Positions 2,621 to 26,408 of a stretch of 26,408 nucleotides of DNA are shown here, one piece after another. Within the stretch, counting starts at the first letter, position 1. Each line of letters begins with the position of its first letter. The DNA comes from a virus (Duplodnaviria > Heunggongvirae > Uroviricota > Caudoviricetes). The notes beneath the pieces were generated by a model. It had not been told where the DNA came from. It saw nothing but the letters and a program-made list of their open reading frames with translations, and made no database searches. A program made the translations under genes and the position numbers. The DNA lies in the IMG/VR virus record IMGVR_UViG_2690316273_000020; one strand, given 5' to 3'.

Positions 2621-2855
2621 AACTGAAGTTGCCCTGAAAATGAAATTTTTTTGCACAACCGCAGAACTTTTCCGCAGGGCATCAGTCTTAATTAGTGCCA
2701 CTGCTTTTCTTTGATGTCCCCATTTTGTGGAGCCCATCAACCCCGCCATTTCGGTTCAAGGTTGATGGGTTTTTTGTTGCCTGAAATTTATGCCTTTTAA
2801 AATCATGATGTTAGAAGCACTGTTTTTTAACGATGGCGACAAATTGGCGGCAGCG
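2621..2855. other. Host-prophage junction; attR core expected in this interval
   Basis: Host ybjL stops at 2620 and phage ogr ends at 2856. In P2, attP lies immediately beyond ogr. The core cannot be pinpointed without the other prophage end. Confidence 0.4.
2733..2776 (+). terminator. Rho-independent terminator downstream of ybjL
   Basis: 10-bp perfect stem cccatcaacc (2733-2742) / ggttgatggg (2760-2769) followed by a T6 run (2770-2775). Confidence 0.6.
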
Positions 2856-4747: not shown

Positions 4748-7700
4748 GCGTCGTATCCCCCCTGATCGCTGTAGTTACTCCTGGCTTTTGCCTTCAGCCT
4801 GCGTTCACGTTCATCAAGCTGGCGGGCCACCTCCCGCGCAATATCCTGCGCACTTTGTCCTGGCTGCGTCTGGATGATGATCTGCGTCGGTGCCTCAATC
4901 CTGTAAACGGGCGGCACAGTGGCTGCGCGACTCACAATTGCTTCTCCACCTTTCGCGGGAAGTGCCAAAGGGTGCAACGGTGGAAGCTCTGCTGGCGCGG
5001 CAGCAACGCCCATCATTCCGGCAACAACGGCAGCCAGTGCAGCTGTATTTCTCCGGCTGGTCACATTTGCCGGGCCGTTAACAATTTCCGGCCCGTTTTC
5101 ACCGACGATGCCAAACTGCCCGCGCGGGATATAGCCGCCGCTGTCATACATCCCCGCAAAGCCATATCCCCATGACGGAAAACCACCCGATGGCATCATC
5201 ACTTTACCGTCTGCATTCACCGTCGCAGGTTGCTGACGCGTCACGCTTTCCGGCAGTTTCGCCTTTGCAGCCTCTTTACTGACAATGCCGAGTTTCTCCA
5301 GCAACCAGGAAACGCCGGATTTCAGGGAGTCCAGCGGATGCATGACCATATTCAGCCCTTCCGCCAGTGCCTCCCCGAATCGTCGCCCCATTGCCGCTGC
5401 GCTCTGCAGTTCGGCAGAGGTCGACTTAACGGGCGTCAGCAGATCAGTAAACCAGCCCCACAGCGCCTGCACTTTGTCGCCAATCCACTGAAACACAGGC
5501 TTAAGTGGTTCGAATGCAGCACTGATAGGACCTGCCGCCGCTTTGAATCCTTCCACCACACCAGCGAGAAATGCGGTGATGGGTTGCCAGTATTTCCAGA
5601 CAACCAGCGCTACGCCCGCCAGTGCAGTAACCACAAGACCTATCGGACTGAGCAGAGCACCTAACAGACCAGATATGGCATACAGGGCAACGCGCAGCAT
5701 CGCCAGCGGACCGGATGCCAGTACTCGCAGCACCGCGCCTGCGGCAGCCAGTCCACCGCGTAGTGCTGCCAGTGGATTCATAAACATCATAGCAACAGCA
5801 CGTAAACCGGATAATCCAGACCGCAACAGTGCAACCGGCACACCTGCTACAGTTTTCAGGACATTCCCCGTCAGTGATGCGGTGCGGCGCAAAGACGACA
5901 ACGGCGCAGTAAGTAAACCCGCTGCGTTGCCCGATGAAGCAAGCCCGCGTCGCAGCAGTGCCAGTGGAGCGCCAGCTAACCAGGACAACGCGCTGCTGGT
6001 TCGTGTTACTGCTGCCGTAACGGAAGGTAACGTTTTGATACCCAGCACAGAGAATCCCAGACGGATGACTGCCAGCGGCCCCAGTACTGCAGCCAGCGCC
6101 ACCGCTAAGGTGCCGAGGCCTACGGTAACCGCAGCCACAACAGCCGCTACTTTCATCAGTGTGCCTGTCAGTTCCGGGTTAGCTTCCACCCAGCGGCGCA
6201 ACGCCCCCGTGATGCTTTTTACCGTGTACAGAATATCCATCAGCGGCTGGCGCAGCGTTTCGCCCAGGCTGCTGAAGGTGTTCTGCGCTCCGGTTTTGAC
6301 CAGCAACCACTGAGCGGAAAGTGAGTCTTTGTTGATGTCGGATTCTTTCTGCATGGAACCGAGCGCATCATTGCCCGCTGTCAGTTTTAGCTGGCGCTGC
6401 AGTTCCGGAAGGTTGTTTGCCAGTTTCGCTGCATCATCACCAAACTCTTTACCAAACAACATGGTCATGGCAGACAGACGCTTGTCCTGCGGCAGTGCGT
6501 TCACCTTCTCCAGCACACGCTGGATAGTTCCCATCGCATCCTTCGTCATCTGCTTTTCAATCACTTCAGGATTGAGTTTCAGCAGATTCATCCCTTCAAA
6601 GAAACTCTTGCTTTGCATGGTGGCAATGGACAATTCACGCACCATCGCGTTTGCTGCACTGGCTGCAACCTCCGGCGCAGCGCCCAGTGTCAGAAAGGTG
6701 GACCCCAGTGCCGCCGCTTTACGATAATCCAGACGGTCAGCCACACCGCCCAGACGTTGCATAACATCAATGATCTCCGCCCCTTTCGACATGGCGTTAT
6801 CATCCAGATAGTTCAGCGCATCGCCGAGCTGTTCAATATTGCGGGTAGGTATTTTGTAGAGCTGTGCGATTTTCCCCAGACTTTCTGACAGTTCATCCGC
6901 TGGCAGCTCAAAGGCTGTTGCCGCCTTTGCTGCCGTACTGGCGAAGGCCAGCAGGTCACGTTTCTGGTCTTCCCAGCTGTCGTCAGGGTTTGCGACGTTC
7001 ATGCGCGCACCACCTTCAACCAGTGCAGCGAAGTCCACCGCACCGTTTTCCATCGGCAACTGTTCGCTGGCAGCCTTGATGGCATCCTGCATTTCATAAA
7101 AACGTGCAGTGCGGTTACCATTATCGTCACGCAGACCATTGACCTGCTTTGCCACACCTTTCATGGCATCTTCCATGCTGGTATAGCTTTTTACTGCCGC
7201 CATCACTGGCGCACCCATTGCCAGCCCTGCAGCCGTGGTAGTGGCTCCGGCTCCTGCGATGCGATCGCGCACTTCAAGCCGTCTTGAGTATTGTTCTCTG
7301 GCAGCGTTCATCCGTGCCTGTTGTTCACCCAGACGTTTAAGTGCTTTTTGCTGGCCCTCCAGTGCCTGCCTTGTTTCTTCAGCATTTTTCTTAAGTTCTC
7401 GCTGGGCACTACTGAGTTGTCTGGTATCAATCCCTGATTCTTTAAGTGCCTGACGTTGTCTCTGGACCGCCCCCAACAAGCCGTTATAGGTCTGCTGAAG
7501 TTCCTGTACTCGTGTTTTGGCCTGACTGAATAACTTTGCCTGCGCGGCGGTTGGCCTGTTAGTGGCAGCAAATTGTGTGGCGAGTTTTGCCGCCTCTTCG
7601 CGGGCTGCGTTCAGGTTGTTGGCTGTTATGGCTAGTTGCGAGCGCGTCTTGCGAAATTCATCAATTCTGCCAGCCTGCTTATTCAGTTCTTTGAGGCTGT

Positions 7701-7821
7701 TTCGGGTATTCTGAATTGCGCCAGCCAGCTCTTTCGAACTGGCCTGTGCAGCACGGAATGGGCGGGTGAGTTTGTCAACCGCATTAAGAATGACCTGCAG
7801 GCGCAGGTTATTATCACTCAT
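4744..7821 (-). CDS. T: Tail tape-measure protein
   Basis: 1025-aa ORF with a coiled-coil-like N-terminus and an Ala/Leu/Gly-rich hydrophobic repeat block (LALLRRGL, VALLRSGL, LAALRGGL); position between E/E' and U. Confidence 0.9.
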   Translation of the reverse strand: MSDNNLRLQVILNAVDKLTRPFRAAQASSKELAGAIQNTRNSLKELNKQAGRIDEFRKTRSQLAITANNLNAAREEAAKLATQFAATNRPTAAQAKLFSQAKTRVQELQQTYNGLLGAVQRQRQALKESGIDTRQLSSAQRELKKNAEETRQALEGQQKALKRLGEQQARMNAAREQYSRRLEVRDRIAGAGATTTAAGLAMGAPVMAAVKSYTSMEDAMKGVAKQVNGLRDDNGNRTARFYEMQDAIKAASEQLPMENGAVDFAALVEGGARMNVANPDDSWEDQKRDLLAFASTAAKAATAFELPADELSESLGKIAQLYKIPTRNIEQLGDALNYLDDNAMSKGAEIIDVMQRLGGVADRLDYRKAAALGSTFLTLGAAPEVAASAANAMVRELSIATMQSKSFFEGMNLLKLNPEVIEKQMTKDAMGTIQRVLEKVNALPQDKRLSAMTMLFGKEFGDDAAKLANNLPELQRQLKLTAGNDALGSMQKESDINKDSLSAQWLLVKTGAQNTFSSLGETLRQPLMDILYTVKSITGALRRWVEANPELTGTLMKVAAVVAAVTVGLGTLAVALAAVLGPLAVIRLGFSVLGIKTLPSVTAAVTRTSSALSWLAGAPLALLRRGLASSGNAAGLLTAPLSSLRRTASLTGNVLKTVAGVPVALLRSGLSGLRAVAMMFMNPLAALRGGLAAAGAVLRVLASGPLAMLRVALYAISGLLGALLSPIGLVVTALAGVALVVWKYWQPITAFLAGVVEGFKAAAGPISAAFEPLKPVFQWIGDKVQALWGWFTDLLTPVKSTSAELQSAAAMGRRFGEALAEGLNMVMHPLDSLKSGVSWLLEKLGIVSKEAAKAKLPESVTRQQPATVNADGKVMMPSGGFPSWGYGFAGMYDSGGYIPRGQFGIVGENGPEIVNGPANVTSRRNTAALAAVVAGMMGVAAAPAELPPLHPLALPAKGGEAIVSRAATVPPVYRIEAPTQIIIQTQPGQSAQDIAREVARQLDERERRLKAKARSNYSDQGGYDA

Positions 7822-8829: not shown

Positions 8830-10002
8830 TTACGCGCTGACCTGGCTGGCGAAATTCACCAGGTACTGATCGGTGATGCGCTGACGCAACATCAGATTTT
8901 CAAGTGGCGGCACTGGCGTGTAGTCGTAGTCGATGGTGAGTTTTCCGGCTTTCAGAGTGTCTTTGTCGTTCACCGACTCGTCCAGCCAGCAATCACCACC
9001 AATGAGATACCCCTGACTGACCAGGCTGCGCATTTTGGCGCGGATGCCCTCGATAATGTCGCGCGCCAGCGACGGGTTCAGCGGTTTGTCCACTGCCCAC
9101 ATGTGCGCTTCTGCCATTGTGTCCGTCAGCACCTGCGCCGTGCGGGTGTAGTTTTCGAAAGCAAAGAGCGGGTCATCACTCAGGCAGCGGGAACCCCAGA
9201 AGCGGAAACCGTCTTTACGCACAAGCGTGGTGACGTCGTTCTGGTTCAGCAGACCTGCATCGGTTGCCGGGTCCTGCAGATCCCAGAACACATCTGCAGA
9301 AATTCCGGTGACACCGTTCACGCCCACGTTGGACAGGCTTTTGTGCCACCCAGTCTGCTCATCAATTTTGGCACGCAGACCAAGCGCACGGGCGGTGGCA
9401 TATGCCGTTGCTTCGGCATTCAGCACCGTGTCCCAGCCAGTAAAGTCGGGCCAGATCAGCATTCCTTCGCGCTGGCTGAAGTTTTCACGGTAAGTGATCG
9501 CCTCCTGTACCGTCTTGCAGCCATACGCTGACAGGTAGGCAAACCCACGCAGGCTTTGCGCCACACTCAGCAACTCAGTCGCAACGGCTTTGTTATCGTG
9601 ACCTGGCACGCCGAGAATGCGCGGTTTAACGCCGAGCTGTGTCTGGGCAGATAACAGGGCTTTCATGCCTGTTTTTTTACCTTCAGCAGTCACTGCGCCG
9701 ATGATATTGGTCGTGGTTTCTTCTTCCGTTTCACCCTGCGGCACACGCACAACAACGGTCACGGGTTTTGCCTGGTCAGCGATGGCATCCAGCGAACGGG
9801 CCAGCGTGCCGGACTCACCCGCTTTACCGCTGGCAGTCAGCACATCAGTGATCAGCACGGGTTTATTAAGAGGAAACATTTTTGCATCGGCATCATCGCC
9901 CGTGCAGACCATGCCCACGATGGCGGTGCTCACCGTGGTAATGGATCGGGTACCTTCGTTGACTTCAACAACGCGCACCCCGTGGTGGTAATCCTGAGCC
10001 AT
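8830..10002 (-). CDS. FI: Contractile tail sheath protein FI
   Basis: 390-aa [24 protein letters not shown]; gpFI-like, followed by FII. Confidence 0.9.
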
Positions 10003-10078
10003 AGTGGCGAACCTCCTGATTGGATTAGGCTTCGCCCTATGTTGAAGTGATTGTGCCTGACAAACAGCTAAGCGCAGT

Positions 10079-10096
10079 TGTACCGTTATTCACACA
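10079..10096. promoter_or_regulatory. Candidate Ogr-dependent late promoter element (P_F-like): TGT-N12-ACA dyad
   Basis: tgtaccgttattcacaca is centred 85 nt upstream of the FI start codon. P2 late promoters carry a TGT-N12-ACA dyad around -55. Confidence 0.45.
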
Positions 10097-10144
10097 AAAT
10101 GACGGTATTTGTCTGCTTGCAGGGATAATCAAAATAATGCTGAT

Positions 10145-10711
10145 TCAGGGGGATTCATTACTCTTATTTGCCGGAAATTTTCTATAAATTGTGGAAACAC
10201 CCACATCAAAAATCAGTGCAATACGCTGTCTTGATTCTCTGGCCTCGAGTAAGCGTCCAATCTGTGCCCACTGTTCGGTGGTCAACTTAGGACGGCGTCC
10301 ACCTACTCTGCCTTTATCACGAGCTGCAGCCAGCCCCGCCCTGGTACGTTCAACTATCAGTTCGCGTTCCATTTCAGCCAGGGCCCCCATGACATGAAAA
10401 AAGAAACGGCCCATTGGGGTGCTGGTATCAATACTGTCAGTCAGGCTTCGGAAATTCACGCCACGCTGACGCAACTCTTCTATCAGCGTAACAAGATGCC
10501 GCATACTGCGCCCCAACCTGTCCAGCTTCCAGACAACCAGAGTGTCTCCTGCCGATAGTGTCCTGAGCAGTTTTTTAAGCCCCGGTCTGTCGGACTTAGT
10601 GCCACTGATTTTGTCCTCAAAAATCCGCTCACATCCCGCGCAGTTCAGTGCATTACGTTGCAAATCTGTGTTCTGGTCATTTGTTGACACGCGTACATAG
10701 CCAATAAGCAT
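10145..10711 (-). CDS. Serine recombinase, DNA invertase of the Hin/Gin/Cin/Pin family
   Basis: MLIGYVRVSTNDQNTDLQRNAL... is near-collinear with Mu Gin, including the catalytic Ser in YVRVSTNDQ and a C-terminal HTH. AAGGAG lies 6 nt upstream of the ATG at 10711. Confidence 0.9.
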   Translation of the reverse strand: MLIGYVRVSTNDQNTDLQRNALNCAGCERIFEDKISGTKSDRPGLKKLLRTLSAGDTLVVWKLDRLGRSMRHLVTLIEELRQRGVNFRSLTDSIDTSTPMGRFFFHVMGALAEMERELIVERTRAGLAAARDKGRVGGRRPKLTTEQWAQIGRLLEARESRQRIALIFDVGVSTIYRKFPANKSNESP

Positions 10712-10766
10712 GATCATCTCCTTGAATAAAAATCGGGGATGATGCCAGTTAGTCGTAATCGCTGCA

Positions 10767-10792
10767 TTTTCTTATACGTTGGTTTGGGAGAA
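10767..10792. repeat. Invertase crossover site (gix/hix-like), proximal to the invertase gene
   Basis: ttttcttatacgttggtttgggagaa is the reverse complement of 12625-12650 at 23 of 26 positions; half-site TTCTCCCAAACC resembles Gin/Hin half-sites. Confidence 0.65.
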
Positions 10793-11137
10793 GCGGCGAA
10801 AAGGGATGTGGGCACAGGAGATAATCAGATACCGGATATGGGAGCATTCGCTTCTGGTTCGGGATGGTTCAGGCTACCAGGTGGATATATTGTTCAGTTT
10901 GGCACTTTTTCAGGAAACACGACCCGCTTTATCAGTGGACACTTCCCTATACCATTCCCTAATCAGCCGATGGTTTCAGTCAGTGTTATGTCTGATGCCG
11001 TTCAGTCAGACCCGTCGAATCCTGCCCCGCAGGTTTTGTCTGTAAATTTTGAACATATCAGTAATTCAGCGTGGCGTGTGGCAACCAGTGATATCTCACA
11101 GCAATACAGATTCAGTTATATTTCGATAGGACGGTAG
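10793..11137 (+). CDS. Alternative tail-fibre C-terminal segment (no own start; fuses to constant H after inversion)
   Basis: The frame is open across the crossover site (..FLYVGLGEAAKRD..), mirroring ..LSYLGLGEGSALP.. at the H crossover. It ends at 11137 and is followed by its own tfa gene. Confidence 0.6.
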   Translation, partial: AAKRDVGTGDNQIPDMGAFASGSGWFRLPGGYIVQFGTFSGNTTRFISGHFPIPFPNQPMVSVSVMSDAVQSDPSNPAPQVLSVNFEHISNSAWRVATSDISQQYRFSYISIGR

Positions 11138-11139
11138 AA

Positions 11140-11580
11140 ATGCAGAAATATATTTTCAGTGCCGATAAAAATGCGTTTTTCCCTGTGGAGCTTAAAATCG
11201 CTTATCAGGAATCCGGCGAATGGCCCGGTGATGGAATCGAAATTGACGACACTGTTGCCGCCGAATTTATGAAGGAAGCACCAGAAGGAAAATACAGAGG
11301 TGTCATCGACGGAATGCCTGCATGGATTGATATTCCACCGCCAACTCATGAGGAACAAATTGCCGCAGCCGAACTGGAAAAGCAGCAATTGATTAATCAG
11401 GTCAACGAATACACACACAGTAAGCAATGGCCTGGTAAAGCGGCGATTGGTCGCCTGAAAGGTGAGGAACTGGCGCAATATAATTTGTGGCTGGATTATC
11501 TGGACGCACTGGAACTGGTCGATACTTCCAGTGCGCCAGATATTGAATGGCCTACGCCTCCGTCAGTTCAGGCCAGATGA
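11140..11580 (+). CDS. Alternative tail-fibre assembly chaperone (Tfa/U'-like)
   Basis: 146-aa ORF whose C-terminus (LDYLDALELVDTSSAPDIEWP) parallels that of G (LDYIDAVTATDTSTAPDVIWP). Convergent with G, overlapping by 29 nt. Confidence 0.75.
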   Translation: MQKYIFSADKNAFFPVELKIAYQESGEWPGDGIEIDDTVAAEFMKEAPEGKYRGVIDGMPAWIDIPPPTHEEQIAAAELEKQQLINQVNEYTHSKQWPGKAAIGRLKGEELAQYNLWLDYLDALELVDTSSAPDIEWPTPPSVQAR

Positions 11581-12157
11581 CATCCGGCGCCGTGCTGGTA
11601 TCTGTTGCCGTCACCGCGTCAATGTAATCCAGCGCAGCGTTAAGTCTGGCGGTTTCTGCCTGCGTCAGATTCCGTCCGGCCTGTAATTTCAGCTGAATCA
11701 GACCAATGGAAGCCATTGCAGCATCAATCAGTGACTGGCGCTGTGCTTCTGCCGCTTCTACTGCGGCGCTATGCTGTGCCTCAGTATCCGCCACCCATTT
11801 TTCACCATTCCATTTATCATATGGCGTTAACGGGGCGATAGTGGTTGTATTTTCAGGGTAATCACCCAGAGCGGTGATTTCTTTTGATTCTCCTGTTTCG
11901 GTGCTATAGACCGTTTCACCGCGATGGTCTGGCACATATTCCCATGAGTTTAAATCTGCCGAACGGCAGATTGCATAACCAGCTTTGTTTGAGCTCGGAG
12001 CATCTAAACAAGAACATACCGGGATACCGACACCGACAGCAAGATGTTCAGTTGATGTGGCAATATATTCCCGTGTTTCGCCATCATAATTATAAACGGT
12101 AACACTCCCCGCCTTTGTAGCAATAAGCTCACTATTTAATACAACTTTATTCATCAT
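11552..12157 (-). CDS. G: Tail-fibre assembly protein G (currently expressed orientation)
   Basis: 201-aa ORF immediately downstream of H with a 4-nt overlap; Tfa-family C-terminal motif. Confidence 0.85.
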   Translation of the reverse strand: MMNKVVLNSELIATKAGSVTVYNYDGETREYIATSTEHLAVGVGIPVCSCLDAPSSNKAGYAICRSADLNSWEYVPDHRGETVYSTETGESKEITALGDYPENTTTIAPLTPYDKWNGEKWVADTEAQHSAAVEAAEAQRQSLIDAAMASIGLIQLKLQAGRNLTQAETARLNAALDYIDAVTATDTSTAPDVIWPELTEA

Positions 12158-13686
12158 GCTGCCCTTACAATGTAGTTAAACGCGATATTTCTTGGACGGT
12201 TTTCAGATGCAGTTACAACTCCAGGAGCAGCACTGGCATCGAAGTCTATACCTTCAGCAATTTTGTCAGTGGCTGAAGTGTTTGTGACATAAGCACTTTG
12301 AACTCTTGATGCTACTTTAAGAGCACCAGCAGCGAAAGTAATCAAAGCACTGCTCGATCCAGGTCTGATATTAAATCCTCCAGTTATATTTCTTATTGCA
12401 TCCCCTTGAGATGATAACAAATCTCGACCAGCATCCACCCCGCGCCCATCATCCCAGCCGCGAATGAATTCACCGCGTAAATCAGGCAATTTATTTGTTG
12501 GATAAGCCTTTGCCAGTTCCGGGTATTCTTCTGCAGAAAAAGGCGCACCGTTGCATTTCAGCCAGCCTGTTGGCGGTGTGGCTGAAGGCCATGGAACAGG
12601 CACACCAACGGGTAATGCCGAACCTTCTCCCAAACCAAGGTATGAGAGAAGACCAGCGACATCCTTTCCACTCAAATTAGTCAGCGTATTGTCCAGCGGT
12701 TGTTTACCTGCCAGCGCATTAAGCATTGTCGTGGCAAAGTTCGGATCATTCCCCAGTGCCGCCGCCAGTTCGCTCAGTGTATCCAGTGCAGCAGGTGCAG
12801 ACCCCACCATTGCTGCAATTGCCGATTTCACAAAAGCCGTGGTGGCAATCTGTGTATTGTTAACCGACTGTGCGGCAGTGGGGGCTGTTGGCGTTCCGGT
12901 GAGTGCCGGACTTGACAGCGGCGCTTTCAGTGCCAGCGCATTGTTAATGGTGGTACTGAATTTCGGATCATTGTTAATGGCTGCGGCTAATTCTTTCAGC
13001 GTGTCCAGCGTGGCTGGCGCACCATTAATCAGGGCCGTCAGTGCCGCCTGAACAAACGCGGTGGTCGCAACCTGCGTGGTGTTATTCCCTGCCGCTGGCG
13101 TTGGCGCTTTTGGTGTCCCGGTAAACGTCGGACTTTCTTTCTGTGCATACTGTGAATGCGGGTCCGGTGCGGCAAGATGTTTTGCCATCTGATCATCCAC
13201 GTACACCTTCAGCTCCAGTACCTTGTCATCCACATACTTGCGGGTTGCCAGCACTACGGCAGGGTCGATTTTCAGGGTGATATTGTCCGTGCTGCTGGTA
13301 ATCAGCACCATGCGCACGGTCTGGGTACGCCCGCTGCCTTCAGCCAGTTGCGGTTTATAGCTTTCCGGGCAGTTCCCCACGGCAATCAATGCCCCTGACT
13401 CATCAAACAGGCCCACTTCACGTATCCACCAACCGCCCTCGTTTTCAGGGATCACCTGTTCAGCAATAATCTGGCTGCTGTTCTGCGGGTCGATATAGAG
13501 CATATTCAGCGCAGCCCGGCGTTTCTCATTTACCAGTGCCGTCTGCTTTGCGTCCGGCGTCGGCAATGCTCCGCCGCCATCGCCCACCGCCATATGGGTA
13601 ATTTTTAGCGGCACACCGAGCGCGGCGGCGCTGGCAAGTTTCGCCGCGCCAATATCCGTCAGCAGGGTATAAAATTTTGTGCTCAT
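12154..13686 (-). CDS. H: Tail fibre protein H (constant N-terminal part plus currently joined variable C-terminus)
   Basis: 510-aa ORF after I; the crossover site lies inside it at about codon 345, so the last about 165 aa sit within the invertible segment. Confidence 0.9.
   Translation of the reverse strand: MSTKFYTLLTDIGAAKLASAAALGVPLKITHMAVGDGGGALPTPDAKQTALVNEKRRAALNMLYIDPQNSSQIIAEQVIPENEGGWWIREVGLFDESGALIAVGNCPESYKPQLAEGSGRTQTVRMVLITSSTDNITLKIDPAVVLATRKYVDDKVLELKVYVDDQMAKHLAAPDPHSQYAQKESPTFTGTPKAPTPAAGNNTTQVATTAFVQAALTALINGAPATLDTLKELAAAINNDPKFSTTINNALALKAPLSSPALTGTPTAPTAAQSVNNTQIATTAFVKSAIAAMVGSAPAALDTLSELAAALGNDPNFATTMLNALAGKQPLDNTLTNLSGKDVAGLLSYLGLGEGSALPVGVPVPWPSATPPTGWLKCNGAPFSAEEYPELAKAYPTNKLPDLRGEFIRGWDDGRGVDAGRDLLSSQGDAIRNITGGFNIRPGSSSALITFAAGALKVASRVQSAYVTNTSATDKIAEGIDFDASAAPGVVTASENRPRNIAFNYIVRAA
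12625..12650. repeat. Invertase crossover site (gix/hix-like) inside H
   Basis: ttctcccaaaccaaggtatgagagaa is an inverted copy of 10767-10792 (23/26); it encodes LSYLGLGE in the H frame. Confidence 0.65.
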
Positions 13687-14288
13687 GGATTCACTCTCAT
13701 TGTGTCAATAACATGGACCGCCCCGCCTTCATGCGCGGTGCCACCGGAAATAATCGTTTCGTTGATATACGGATAGATCGTGATTTCTTCGCCAAGATAG
13801 CTGGCGGCTCCCACCCAATGCGGGCCGCTGGTCTGCAGATTGATGGACATGCCGATCATGTGGCGGCTACATGGTTTGGCATCGCTTATCAGTCGCTCAA
13901 GTTCCAGATAGGTATCTTCAGTGATGCCCTGGTCCTGCACGCCGATATCCAGGCGAAACGTGCCCGGTGCCTCTCCGGTTTGCCACCACTCAATAATGCG
14001 GATCAGAAAGCCGAACGGCTCCACCACCCGCCGCACGGCACTGGTGGTCCCTTTATGCTGATGAATATAAAAAGCATCCTTCACCACCTGGCGCTTGACG
14101 CTTTCTGTCCAGCCCTCGTCCCAGCGATCCACAGAGAACGCCCAGGCGAGATAAGGCAGGAAACTGACCGGACAGGTTGCCGGATTCCACAAGTCACGAA
14201 GCGGCACCTGCAGATCAGAAATCCCGCTGCAGGTTTGCGCCAGTCGGCGCTCCAGTGGTGTTGAACCCGGTGGCAGCAGACTATTCAT
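13683..14288 (-). CDS. I: Baseplate protein I
   Basis: 201-aa ORF with the gpI-like block RDLWNPATCP..LPYLAWAFSVDRWDE; 4-nt overlap with H. Confidence 0.85.
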   Translation of the reverse strand: MNSLLPPGSTPLERRLAQTCSGISDLQVPLRDLWNPATCPVSFLPYLAWAFSVDRWDEGWTESVKRQVVKDAFYIHQHKGTTSAVRRVVEPFGFLIRIIEWWQTGEAPGTFRLDIGVQDQGITEDTYLELERLISDAKPCSRHMIGMSINLQTSGPHWVGAASYLGEEITIYPYINETIISGGTAHEGGAVHVIDTMRVNP

Positions 14289-24995: not shown

Positions 24996-25265
24996 TTACC
25001 AATTTCTTTTTTCGGAGTTTAGCCAATCACCGCATGGATAATATCTTGACGCCCATTCACCTTGTAAACGAGCTACAAACAGAATATCGTTACTATCGAC
25101 CCTGGCTTGGAGTCCGTCACGCAGTTGAGTTGCGGTCAGCGTTGTATCTACTAACCAAAATGATTCAAGATATTTACAGTATGTAAATTGCTTTAGATAG
25201 TCAAAAACTTCATCGTAGTTTCTTCCCGGAGCCTTCAAGTCATAGGTTATACAATAAATAGCCAT
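24996..25265 (-). CDS. Hypothetical protein (89 aa), AT-rich cargo between Q and cos
   Basis: ATG start with GGAG 8 nt upstream; alternating hydrophobic pattern (IYCITYDL, NYDEVFDYLKQF, WLVDT, ILFVARL) suggests a small alpha/beta fold. No family recognised. Confidence 0.5.
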   Translation of the reverse strand: MAIYCITYDLKAPGRNYDEVFDYLKQFTYCKYLESFWLVDTTLTATQLRDGLQARVDSNDILFVARLQGEWASRYYPCGDWLNSEKRNW

Positions 25266-25268
25266 TCT

Positions 25269-25451
25269 CTAAGCTCCGCATTTTTTATCATTTGGGGAAC
25301 ATCTTAACCTGCGACATTTGCGGCAATACGATTGAGGGATCAGCCGCTCTCCTTCCATAGTTCTAAAACCAAACACTTCTTCAATTTTGTTCAAATCACC
25401 ACTTGCAATAACCCCACAGCAGGGGCAGACAGCCTCAATTTGAAATGCCAT
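25269..25451 (-). CDS. Hypothetical Cys-rich small protein (about 60 aa; possible zinc ribbon)
   Basis: Start MAFQIEAVCPCCG.. has GGAG 6 nt upstream; the ORF-track version begins with TTG at 25514. Cys cluster CPCC ... CRKCRRLRC; basic C-terminus. Confidence 0.45.
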   Translation of the reverse strand: MAFQIEAVCPCCGVIASGDLNKIEEVFGFRTMEGERLIPQSYCRKCRRLRCSPNDKKCGA

Positions 25452-25550
25452 GTCTATCTCCATTCCACATGTTGAATGTAGGGTAATACTTCCTTTCAAG
25501 CAAAAATGAGACAAGGATCTTGAAACCTAATTTAAACTTGCTTGCGCGCG

Positions 25551-25569
25551 CTCGTATCCCCGCCACGCC
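25551..25569. other. cos-like site (P2-family 19-nt cohesive-end sequence)
   Basis: The minus strand reads GGCGTGGCGGGGATACGAG; the first 13 nt match the remembered P2/186 cos ends (GGCG[A/T]GGCGGGGAAAGCA..). It is a GC-rich island in AT-rich DNA about 610 bp from the Q stop. Confidence 0.45.
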
Positions 25570-25618
25570 TGCCCGCTTTATGTAGTAGTTTTCATGCAGG
25601 TGCATGATCTACGCGAAA

Positions 25619-25638
25619 GCCCGCCAGTTCTGGCGGGC
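25619..25638 (-). terminator. Possible weak intrinsic terminator for the large cargo ORF
   Basis: 8-bp GC stem gcccgcca/tggcgggc followed on the minus strand by UUUCGCGU. Confidence 0.3.
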
Positions 25639-25685
25639 CCTAGCAAAACGATCCTCAAACGATCATGCGATCTCATGCAGCATAG

Positions 25686-26408
25686 TCATGCACGATCATT
25701 TGACTCAGCATCTGCTGCACGCTTGCTGCGCGAAGATGCACTTTTACTATCAATCTTTCGACAGTTCTTTCTATCCCTGGCTTCATTTTCTTTAAATTTG
25801 TTATATGTCTCAGTATCAAAAAACGAAATTGTTTCAACCTCATCTTTTGGTATGAGCACACGGAAATCTTCGATATTAAGCCGAGACATTCCACTTATCA
25901 CACCACTATCAAGATAATGTTGGTGATAGTTAGTCGTGATACTAATCGTTAGATCATCTTTATCCCGATATCCGCTTAACATCGGGAGAAGTTCAAGGTG
26001 CTCTGAAAGCCCGTTTTCTAACGCCGGACAAGTAACAAAACCAACATAGATTTTGCGAGACGACAGAGTTGCTATGATCGGAAACTGTCTTGCGGACGCT
26101 TCCATGAGTAATGATTCGAAAGCGTTATTACCCACAGCTTTAGCTAAGGCATCCCAGCGACGATCTCCACGTGATGTGCGTAACTTATTTCCAAAACCTG
26201 AAATCGCAGCGAGGACAATTGAAATCATAACCCATGCTATCTGTTTGATTTCATTTATTCTTTGAAGTTTGTCTTTCGATGAAGACAACATGCCATTAAA
26301 ACTGTCAGGTGTTAGATTCAAGGCATTAGCCAGCCAACGAAACCCTCCGCTGACGTTCAAAATAAAGGTGAAAAAACCGCTGTCACGAACGGTGCAATAG
26401 TGATCCAC
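25686..26408 (-). CDS. Hypothetical protein, 5'-truncated by the window edge (at least 240 aa visible), cargo in the old/tin-equivalent position
   Basis: Long ORF in AT-rich DNA running off the window; one predicted TM helix (IAWVMISIVLAAISGFG); low-complexity basic/acidic C-terminal tail. No motif I recognise. Confidence 0.6.
   Translation of the reverse strand: MDHYCTVRDSGFFTFILNVSGGFRWLANALNLTPDSFNGMLSSSKDKLQRINEIKQIAWVMISIVLAAISGFGNKLRTSRGDRRWDALAKAVGNNAFESLLMEASARQFPIIATLSSRKIYVGFVTCPALENGLSEHLELLPMLSGYRDKDDLTISITTNYHQHYLDSGVISGMSRLNIEDFRVLIPKDEVETISFFDTETYNKFKENEARDRKNCRKIDSKSASSRSKRAADAESNDRA

What the first reader, a model, noticed from the sequence alone, without database searches (positions are those of the whole stretch)
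10145..12650. Tail-fibre host-range switch: Gin/Hin-type invertase with an about 1.86 kb invertible segment
A serine invertase gene sits 56 bp from a 26-bp crossover site (10767-10792), which is an inverted copy (23/26) of a site inside H (12625-12650). The segment holds the current H C-terminus and G in one orientation and a start-less alternative fibre C-terminus and alternative tfa in the other. Both H-side junctions encode L(G)LGE in frame, so inversion would swap the receptor-binding domain and its chaperone, as in the Mu G segment. In P2 itself this position (G to FI) holds the Z/fun cargo; here the invertase occupies it instead.
Basis: partly seen in the sequence, partly recalled or inferred. 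Interest (0 to 1): 0.55.

Follow-up and report, generated by a model that had tools for sequence, protein, structure and literature searches.

The report
Invertible tail-fibre switch in P2-like prophage
This is a real but ordinary DNA-flipping switch that lets a P2-like prophage of E. coli alternate between two tail-fibre tips; the same switch is common in enterobacterial genomes and already described in the literature.

Summary
A 26-bp inverted repeat (10767-10792 and 12625-12650, 23/26) brackets a 1.86-kb segment next to an intact serine invertase gene (10145-10711, minus strand). In-silico inversion fuses the constant 354 residues of tail-fibre protein H in frame to the second tip.

New evidence:
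- The invertase is 86% identical to e14 PinE and 74-80% to Mu Gin.
- Its 5' coding region is homologous to the annotated P1 cin enhancer. It carries two Fis-core matches 48 bp apart, about 97 bp from the nearest crossover site.
- The crossover sites match the e14 and P1 sites and share the central AA dinucleotide.
- The exact predicted recombinant H' (468 aa) exists in public E. coli assemblies.
- Prophages 99-99.98% identical to this one occur in both orientations, with breakpoints inside the 26-bp sites.

This is a Pin/Gin-type (Din family) tail-fibre switch in the Z/fun hotspot of a P2-like prophage integrated beside rybB. Inversion has been shown experimentally in P2-like prophages of EPEC, and a preprint notes invertases in this hotspot.

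Three corrections:
- The closest relative is the e14 P segment, not Mu G.
- The invertase probably starts at the third codon of the ORF.
- The "start-less" tip has a conserved in-frame ATG just outside the segment.

Verdict: confirmed, already known, low interest.

The parts
10145..10711 (-). Serine DNA invertase gene (188 aa). The ORF extends to 10717, but the ATG at 10711 is the likely start.
   Evidence: Pfam Resolvase 8.8e-53 and HTH_7 1.4e-13. E 4e-92 to the Mu Gin structures 3uj3 and 4m6f. 85.6% identical to e14 PinE, 78% to P1 Cin, 74% to Mu Gin. Catalytic Ser9 and wild-type Met114 are present. AAGGAG lies 6 nt before the ATG at 10711. The exact 188-aa protein is in NCBI as 'recombinase family protein'.
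10622..10693 (.). Predicted recombinational enhancer inside the invertase 5' coding region (coding nt 19-90). Fis-core matches lie at 10675-10689 (site I) and 10627-10641 (site II), with centres 48 bp apart.
   Evidence: The interval is homologous to the annotated P1 cin enhancer, 56/72 identical. Matches to GNNYRNNWNNYRNNC sit at coding nt 23-37 (1 mismatch) and 71-85 (0 mismatches), conserved in position in the window, Mu gin, P1 cin and E. coli LR-33. Synonymous codon identity is 0.56 here against 0.42 in the rest of the gene. Fis binding was not tested.
10767..10792 (-). Invertase-proximal 26-bp crossover site, TTCTCCCAAACC AA CGTATAAGAAAA on the minus strand.
   Evidence: 23/26 identical to the pinE-proximal e14 site TTCTCCCAAACCAACGTTTATGAAAA. 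The collinear match to inverted relatives ends here.
12625..12650 (+). Distal 26-bp crossover site inside H, TTCTCCCAAACC AA GGTATGAGAGAA. It encodes ...YLGLGE... on the minus strand.
   Evidence: Breakpoints in relatives fall at 12624-12647.
10779..12638 (.). Invertible segment, about 1.86 kb measured between the central dinucleotides.
   Evidence: The in-silico inversion of this interval aligns to L010 as one ungapped 11,965-bp match at 99.3%. E. coli complete genomes hold 14 copies in the window orientation and 20 inverted at 80% coverage or more.
12639..13686 (-). Constant N-terminal part of tail-fibre gene H, outside the segment. Residues 1-354 are shared by both forms.
   Evidence: Pfam Phage_tail_fib 3.4e-65. 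Common prefix of 354 aa. Residues 184-340 are 80% identical to P1 S.
12154..12636 (-). Currently expressed variable C-terminus of H (tip A, Collar domain, StfE-like).
   Evidence: Pfam Collar 6e-15. 59% identical to e14 StfE.
11552..12157 (-). Tail-fibre assembly chaperone for tip A (TfaE-like). Its start overlaps the H stop codon.
   Evidence: Pfam Caudo_TAP 3.9e-31. 87.5% identical to e14 TfaE. The sequence shows the ATGATGA overlap.
10781..11137 (+). Alternative tip B (gp53-like C-terminal domain), not joined to H in this orientation. It is also readable as ORF 10739-11137 from an ATG outside the segment.
   Evidence: Pfam Gp53-like_C 3.1e-09. The fused form H' of 468 aa exists exactly in NCBI as HGX4381096.1. 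All 120 best relatives listed are about 96% identical or more, and nearly all are 468 aa.
11140..11580 (+). Tail-fibre assembly chaperone for tip B (TfaP-like). It converges on the other tfa gene and overlaps it by 29 bp.
   Evidence: Pfam Caudo_TAP 1.3e-33. 54% identical to e14 TfaP.

Best explanation
This is a two-state, Pin/Gin-type (Din family) site-specific inversion switch in the tail-fibre region of a P2-like prophage of E. coli.

Proposed mechanism:
1. The 188-aa serine invertase binds as dimers to the two 26-bp crossover sites.
2. With host Fis bound to the enhancer inside the invertase's own 5' coding region, it forms an invertasome.
3. It cuts at the central AA dinucleotide, rotates one pair of subunits by 180 degrees and religates, flipping 1.86 kb.

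The late V-W-J-I-H operon reads into the segment from the H side. Only the tip and chaperone that face H are therefore made as a full-length fibre: H (510 aa, Collar/StfE-like tip) with the TfaE-like chaperone, or H' (468 aa, gp53-like tip) with the TfaP-like chaperone. A lysogen population would thus release two kinds of virions, presumably with different receptor specificities (bet-hedging on host range).

Shown here: the anatomy, the homology, frame conservation, and natural occurrence of both orientations in near-identical prophages. Inferred: Fis dependence, the flipping rate in this strain, and the change in host range.
For: - **Sites.** They are real, unique in the window and not expected by chance. 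They share the central AA and match the e14 and P1 crossover sites.
- **Invertase.** It is intact, 74-86% identical to PinE, Cin and Gin, and the catalytic motifs are identical.
- **Enhancer.** The homologous region carries two Fis-core matches 48 bp apart. Site I lies 97.5 bp from the nearest site centre, against 96.5 bp in both Mu and e14, from the coordinates.
- **Frame.** Inversion keeps H in frame.
- **Recombinant protein.** The exact predicted H' is present in public E. coli assemblies.
- **Both orientations.** L009 (1 mismatch in 13.5 kb) has the window orientation. L010 (99.3%) and L011 (1 mismatch in a 3.9-kb flank) have the inverted one, with breakpoints inside the 26-bp sites. Among complete E. 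coli genomes both orientations are about equally common, 14 against 20.
- **Experiments on relatives.** Inversion has been demonstrated for the homologous e14 P segment and for P2-like prophages in EPEC (PMC12529663; PMC4272514).
Against: - No read-level data exist for this strain, so flipping in this particular lysogen is not shown.
- The Fis-site matches lie in strongly conserved coding sequence and the motif is degenerate, so they are weak on their own.
- The receptors of the two tips are unknown.
- No promoter for the invertase was identified by the consensus scan.
Confidence: 0.88

Rival explanations
1. The switch chiefly serves the host or lysogen rather than virion host range. The invertase-proximal ORF is a short leader outside the segment joined to whichever tip faces the invertase; at present this is ORF 10739-11137. 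It would be expressed as a free receptor-binding fragment that masks a surface receptor and blocks superinfecting phages, as reported for StfE2 of e14. This could act alongside the host-range switch.
For: The in-frame ATGATG at 10739 lies outside the segment, at the same position as the start of e14 stfE. It is kept in relatives in both orientations (gene calls). Kirigo et al. 2025 report that the equivalent e14 chimera blocks T2 adsorption (PMC12529663). The module here is the closest relative of the e14 P segment.
Against: No recognisable Shine-Dalgarno sequence or promoter precedes 10739. The prophage looks complete across the whole late region, so a virion function is the simpler reading. 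There were no PADLOC hits. The conserved ATG may only be the complement of an invertase promoter element.
Confidence: 0.1
2. The switch is a frozen relic. The parts are present, but the switch no longer flips in this prophage, for example because the invertase is not expressed or the three mismatches between the outer half-sites prevent recombination.
For: Direct flipping was not observed here. A sibling prophage at the same site in E. coli PA45B has a decayed segment with frameshifted genes.
Against: All genes are intact. The inner half-sites are identical, and the outer half-sites differ no more than those of the active e14 and P1 sites. Prophages with 1 mismatch in 3.9-13.5 kb occur in opposite orientations, which implies recent flipping.
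Confidence: 0.05
3. The opposite orientations in databases arise from RecA-mediated recombination between the short repeats or from assembly artefacts, not from the invertase.
For: Short-read assemblers can mis-orient a segment bounded by inverted repeats.
Against: The repeats are only 26-27 bp, shorter than read length and a poor RecA substrate. Both orientations are found in complete genomes. The sites conform to the invertase crossover sites. Inversion of the e14 homologue depends on Pin recombinases, since pinE mutants are locked in one orientation.
Confidence: 0.03

Closest known systems
e14 P segment with PinE (E. coli K-12 cryptic prophage)
   Same: Same order: constant fibre part, [tip, tfa, convergent tfa, tip], then an invertase reading away from the segment. 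Identities are PinE 85.6%, TfaE 87.5%, StfE 59% and TfaP 54%. The crossover sites are nearly the same. Segment size is 1797 bp against about 1860 bp. The 29-bp overlap of the two tfa genes is shared. The start codon of the invertase-proximal ORF lies outside the segment in both.
   Different: e14 is a defective lambdoid element with a truncated fibre gene. Here the module sits in an apparently complete P2-like late operon. Tip B (gp53-like) has no BLASTP match to the StfP C-terminus.
Mu G segment with Gin
   Same: Same logic and gene order: Sc-[Sv U U' Sv']-gin. The invertase is 74-80% identical. The enhancer lies in the invertase 5' coding region at the same distance from the nearest site.
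   Different: The G segment is 3 kb with longer tips. The gix sites differ more, with no match within 8 mismatches. The tfa proteins are only distantly related.
P1 C segment with Cin
   Same: Cin is 78% identical. The annotated enhancer is homologous. cixR matches the distal site at 21/26. The H constant part is 80% identical to part of P1 S.
   Different: cin points towards the segment from the other side. The segment is 4.2 kb.
Invertible tail-fibre loci of P2-like prophages and phages (EPEC E2348/69; phage records such as Klebsiella phage KP12 and Peduovirus magyaro; invertases noted in the Z/fun hotspot)
   Same: Same phage family and same position between the tfa gene and FI, with an invertase and two tfa genes. 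Coexisting orientations were shown by sequencing and PCR in EPEC (PMC4272514). The preprint 10.1101/2024.10.15.618418 notes a DNA invertase often in this hotspot, with inversion of adjacent genes.
   Different: One EPEC locus has three repeats and four states. This locus has two sites and two states. The particular pairing of tip A with this H is rare, in a cluster of 12 members.

Membership tests
Din family of serine DNA invertase systems (Gin/Hin/Cin/Pin) | Small serine recombinase with an N-terminal catalytic domain (nucleophilic Ser9/10) and a C-terminal helix-turn-helix domain. | tested here: met
   Pfam Resolvase plus HTH_7. Aligns end to end with the Gin structures at E 4e-92. The YVRVSTNDQ, VWKLDRLGRS and HVMGALAEMERELI motifs are identical to those of Gin, Cin and PinE.
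Din family of serine DNA invertase systems (Gin/Hin/Cin/Pin) | Two 26-bp imperfectly palindromic crossover sites in inverted orientation, with identical central dinucleotides. | tested here: met
   Sites at 10767-10792 and 12625-12650, 23/26, central AA in both, inner half-sites 12/12 identical. They match the e14 and P1 sites.
Din family of serine DNA invertase systems (Gin/Hin/Cin/Pin) | A cis-acting recombinational enhancer with two Fis sites 48 bp apart, at least about 90 bp from the nearest crossover site. | tested here: inconclusive
   At the sequence level the feature is present. The region is homologous to the annotated P1 enhancer (56/72), has two Fis-core matches with centres 48 bp apart, lies 97.5 bp from the site centre, and shows raised synonymous conservation. 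Fis binding and dependence cannot be tested here, and the coding constraint confounds the conservation.
Din family of serine DNA invertase systems (Gin/Hin/Cin/Pin) | The segment actually inverts. | tested here: met
   The evidence is comparative only. Near-identical prophages occur in both orientations with breakpoints in the sites. The exact recombinant protein is on record. Flipping within this strain is not testable with these tools.
Phage tail-fibre host-range switch (Mu G, P1 C, e14 P type) | A constant fibre N-terminus outside the segment. Two alternative C-termini inside it, each followed by its own tail-fibre assembly chaperone and both in frame after inversion. | tested here: met
Phage tail-fibre host-range switch (Mu G, P1 C, e14 P type) | The two orientations give virions with different receptor specificity or host range. 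| not testable with these tools
   The tips have unrelated folds by Pfam (Collar against gp53-like_C), which makes different receptors likely. No adsorption data are available.
P2-like (Peduoviridae) prophage | P2 late-gene order Q/P-O-N-M-L-X-Y-K-lysA-lysB-R-S-V-W-J-I-H-tfa-(cargo)-FI-FII-E-T-U-D-ogr. | tested here: met
   ORF map and Pfam hits for portal, terminase, sheath and gpD. Gene calls in L009. Comparison with P2. ogr and D are annotated in the relative PA45B.

The most novel reading that the evidence does not exclude
The invertase-proximal ORF is a conserved short leader starting at ATG 10739, outside the segment, joined to whichever tip is not attached to H. It may be expressed in the lysogen as a free receptor-binding fragment. 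The flip would then toggle virion host range and, at the same time, which surface receptor the lysogen masks against superinfecting phages, as claimed for StfE2 of e14 in 2025. That would extend a recombinase-activated defence from a cryptic element to widespread, intact P2-like prophages.
Probability: 0.08. Interest if true: 0.45.

Novelty: already known. Interest (0 to 1): 0.12.

Why it matters
It matters mainly for annotation and for practical phage work.
- Automated annotation labels the parts only as "recombinase family protein", "phage tail protein" and "gp53-like domain-containing protein".
- Either orientation may turn up in an assembly, so tail-fibre typing, host-range prediction and prophage comparison for P2-like elements should treat H and H' as two states of one gene.
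- It adds nothing new to the mechanism of Din-family inversion.
- The one open angle is whether the displaced tip is expressed and has a defence role.

Tried and rejected
- **Third crossover site.** I looked for one that would make this a multi-state shufflon like one EPEC locus. None was found within 3 mismatches of the 26-mer, nor with the 10-nt core.
- **Promoter and terminator scan of 9900-13900.** Promoter-like hits were at the chance level (5 found, 4.8 expected) and none lay upstream of the invertase. This says nothing useful about invertase expression.
- **NCBIfam.** Only sub-threshold hits for the invertase and none for the fibre parts.
- **PADLOC.** No defence-family hit for the invertase or the proximal ORF.
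- **Direct look-up of the recombinant protein's contig.** I reached it after a homology search that returned the same protein id.
- **Kutsukake 2006 (Fels-2 Fin).** The paper is not held, so Fels-2 is mentioned only through other papers' abstracts and reference lists.
- **P2 G homology.** Neither tfa has a BLASTP match to P2 G at E 1e-3, so calling the 201-aa gene "G" is correct by position only.
Full report
**Context.** The window is E. coli chromosome. grxA, ybjM and ybjL occupy 1-2620 at 99.8% identity to many E. coli genomes. The RybB sRNA lies at 2700-2778. It is followed directly by the late region of a P2-like prophage: ogr, D, U, T, E, FII, FI, then the finding, then H, I, J, W, V, S, R, the lysis genes, X, L, M, N, O, and P and Q on the other strand.

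**The observation.** The longest inverted repeat in 9500-13500 has arms at 10767-10793 and 12624-12650, 27 nt at 89%.
- As 26-mers the arms match 23/26.
- A consensus search allowing three mismatches finds only these two sites in the window, and none in 100 shuffles.
- Read in the same sense they are TTCTCCCAAACC-AA-CGTATAAGAAAA and TTCTCCCAAACC-AA-GGTATGAGAGAA.
- The inner half-sites are identical, the centre is AA in both, and the three differences are all in the outer half-sites.

Between the sites lie four coding units.
- On the minus strand: the last 156 codons of H (Collar domain) and a 201-aa Caudo_TAP protein whose start overlaps the H stop.
- On the plus strand: a gp53-like C-terminal domain and a 146-aa Caudo_TAP protein.
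- The two chaperone genes converge and overlap by 29 bp.

Inverting 10779-12638 in silico gives a 468-aa H'. It shares residues 1-354 with the 510-aa H and continues in frame into the gp53-like tip.

**The recombinase.** ORF 10145-10717 has Resolvase and HTH_7 domains. It aligns over its whole length with the crystallised Mu Gin at E 4e-92.
- Identity is 85.6% to e14 PinE, 78% to P1 Cin and 74% to Mu Gin.
- The catalytic serine motif YVRVSTNDQ and the oligomerisation-helix motif HVMGALAEMERELI are identical to these enzymes. Met114 is wild type; the crystallised Gin proteins carry Val at this position.
- No inactivating change is present.
- The likely start is the third codon, the ATG at 10711. 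It has AAGGAG 6 nt upstream and gives the 188-aa product annotated in relatives and present verbatim in NCBI.

**The enhancer.** The P1 record annotates the cin enhancer at coding nt 19-90.
- The same interval here (10693-10622) is 56/72 identical to it.
- It contains two matches to the Fis core GNNYRNNWNNYRNNC, at coding nt 23-37 (one mismatch) and 71-85 (no mismatch).
- These matches are conserved in position in the window, Mu gin, P1 cin and an E. coli relative.
- Their centres are 48 bp apart, the spacing known for the Hin, Gin and Cin enhancers. That figure rests on established knowledge (Johnson et al. 1987); the 15-bp core sites are described in PMC3798978.
- Site I lies 97.5 bp from the centre of the nearest crossover site, against 96.5 bp in both Mu and e14, computed from the coordinates.
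- Synonymous codon identity among four invertase genes is 0.56 in this interval against 0.42 elsewhere. The pairs are not independent, so this is modest support.
- The motif is degenerate and lies in conserved coding sequence. I therefore rate the enhancer as present by homology but untested for function.

**Does it flip?** Among 5,426 complete E. coli genomes, 14 hold at least 80% of the region in the window orientation. Twenty hold at least 80% of the in-silico inverted version.

In strain LR-33 the collinear match to the window stops at 10793 and resumes at 12624. The interior matches on the opposite strand from 10774 to 12641.

More directly, the exact predicted H' sequence is on record as HGX4381096.1 from E. 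coli.
- Assembly GCA_048120645.1 (L009) carries the prophage with 1 mismatch in 13.5 kb, in the window orientation.
- GCA_048120985.1 (L010) aligns to the in-silico inverted window as a single ungapped 11,965-bp match at 99.3%.
- A Logan contig (L011) has a flank with 1 mismatch in 3.9 kb joined to the inverted segment.

The breakpoints overlap the 26-bp sites in each case. This lineage has therefore flipped recently. Flipping in the sequenced strain itself cannot be shown without reads.

**What it is.** It is a Din-family invertible tail-fibre switch.
- The module is closest to the P segment of e14. It has the same gene order, the same 29-bp tfa overlap and near-identical crossover sites. TfaE is 87.5% identical, StfE 59% and TfaP 54%.
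- Gene order also matches Mu: Sc-[Sv U U' Sv']-gin.
- The H constant part is mosaic, with 157 residues 80% identical to P1 S.
- P2 itself has fun(Z) between G and FI. Here, and in many P2-like phage records, an invertase sits there.

**Mechanism (inferred from the family).**
1. Invertase dimers at the two sites synapse on the Fis-bound enhancer.
2. They cleave at the central AA, exchange strands by subunit rotation and religate.
3. Late transcription enters from the H side, so only the H-facing tip and its coupled chaperone form full-length fibres.
4. Lysogen populations therefore yield two virion types.

**Prior knowledge.**
- Goldberg et al. 2014 found coexisting orientations by sequencing and PCR in two P2-like prophages of EPEC (PMC4272514).
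- Egorov et al. 2024 state that a DNA invertase is often encoded in the Z/fun hotspot of P2-like phages, together with inversion of adjacent genes.
- Kirigo et al. 2025 measured PinE- and PinQ-driven inversion of the homologous e14 segment, whose repeats TTGGTTTGGGAGAAGG are essentially those found here.
- All 120 best relatives of H' listed are about 96% identical or more. Nearly all are 468 aa, and they come from E. coli, Salmonella, Klebsiella and Citrobacter.

The finding is therefore correct but already known.

**A residual open point.** ORF 10739-11137 starts at an ATGATG outside the segment, at the same place as e14 stfE. Kirigo et al. report that the equivalent e14 chimera, StfE2, blocks T2 adsorption. 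I found no ribosome-binding site or promoter for it and no PADLOC hit. A defence role for the displaced tip is not excluded, but I rate it at about 8-10%.

Noticed in passing
window 2700-2778 (+): A RybB sRNA gene (Rfam RF00110, 105 bits) lies just downstream of ybjL. The P2-like prophage (ogr, D and onward) begins right after it, so rybB or its 3' end appears to be the integration site. Several E. coli genomes carry a sibling prophage at the same place.
   Followed up: partly
window 10739-10780 (+): An in-frame ATGATG outside the invertible segment opens ORF 10739-11137 (leader MMPVSRNRCIFLYVGLGE). The same start position is seen for e14 stfE and in relatives in both orientations. Its complement is part of a motif, TGGCATCAT or TGGCATGAT, conserved upstream of the invertase genes of the window, e14 and Mu. 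That motif could be an extended -10 element of the invertase promoter.
   Followed up: partly
window 7291-7721 (-), N-terminal part of the tape-measure gene T: This patch fails to align by megablast to relatives that are otherwise 96-99% identical on both sides. It looks like a local mosaic replacement inside the tape-measure gene.
   Followed up: no
window 24996-26408 (-): Three unannotated minus-strand ORFs lie beyond the portal gene Q, at the position of the P2 old/tin cargo hotspot. One is 89 aa with a weak Cas2-like PADLOC hit (E 5e-4). One is 81 aa with two CxxC pairs. One is at least 240 aa, runs off the window and has no family hit.
   Followed up: partly
window 12670-13135 (H residues 184-340): The constant part of H is 80% identical over 157 residues to P1 tail-fibre protein S (residues 256-412). 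This is an example of the known mosaicism of tail-fibre genes between unrelated phages.
   Followed up: no
L005 22742-23926 (E. coli PA45B, same rybB site): A sibling prophage has an intact invertase but a decayed invertible segment. The tail-fibre fragment and both tfa genes are annotated as frameshifted or partial pseudogenes.
   Followed up: no
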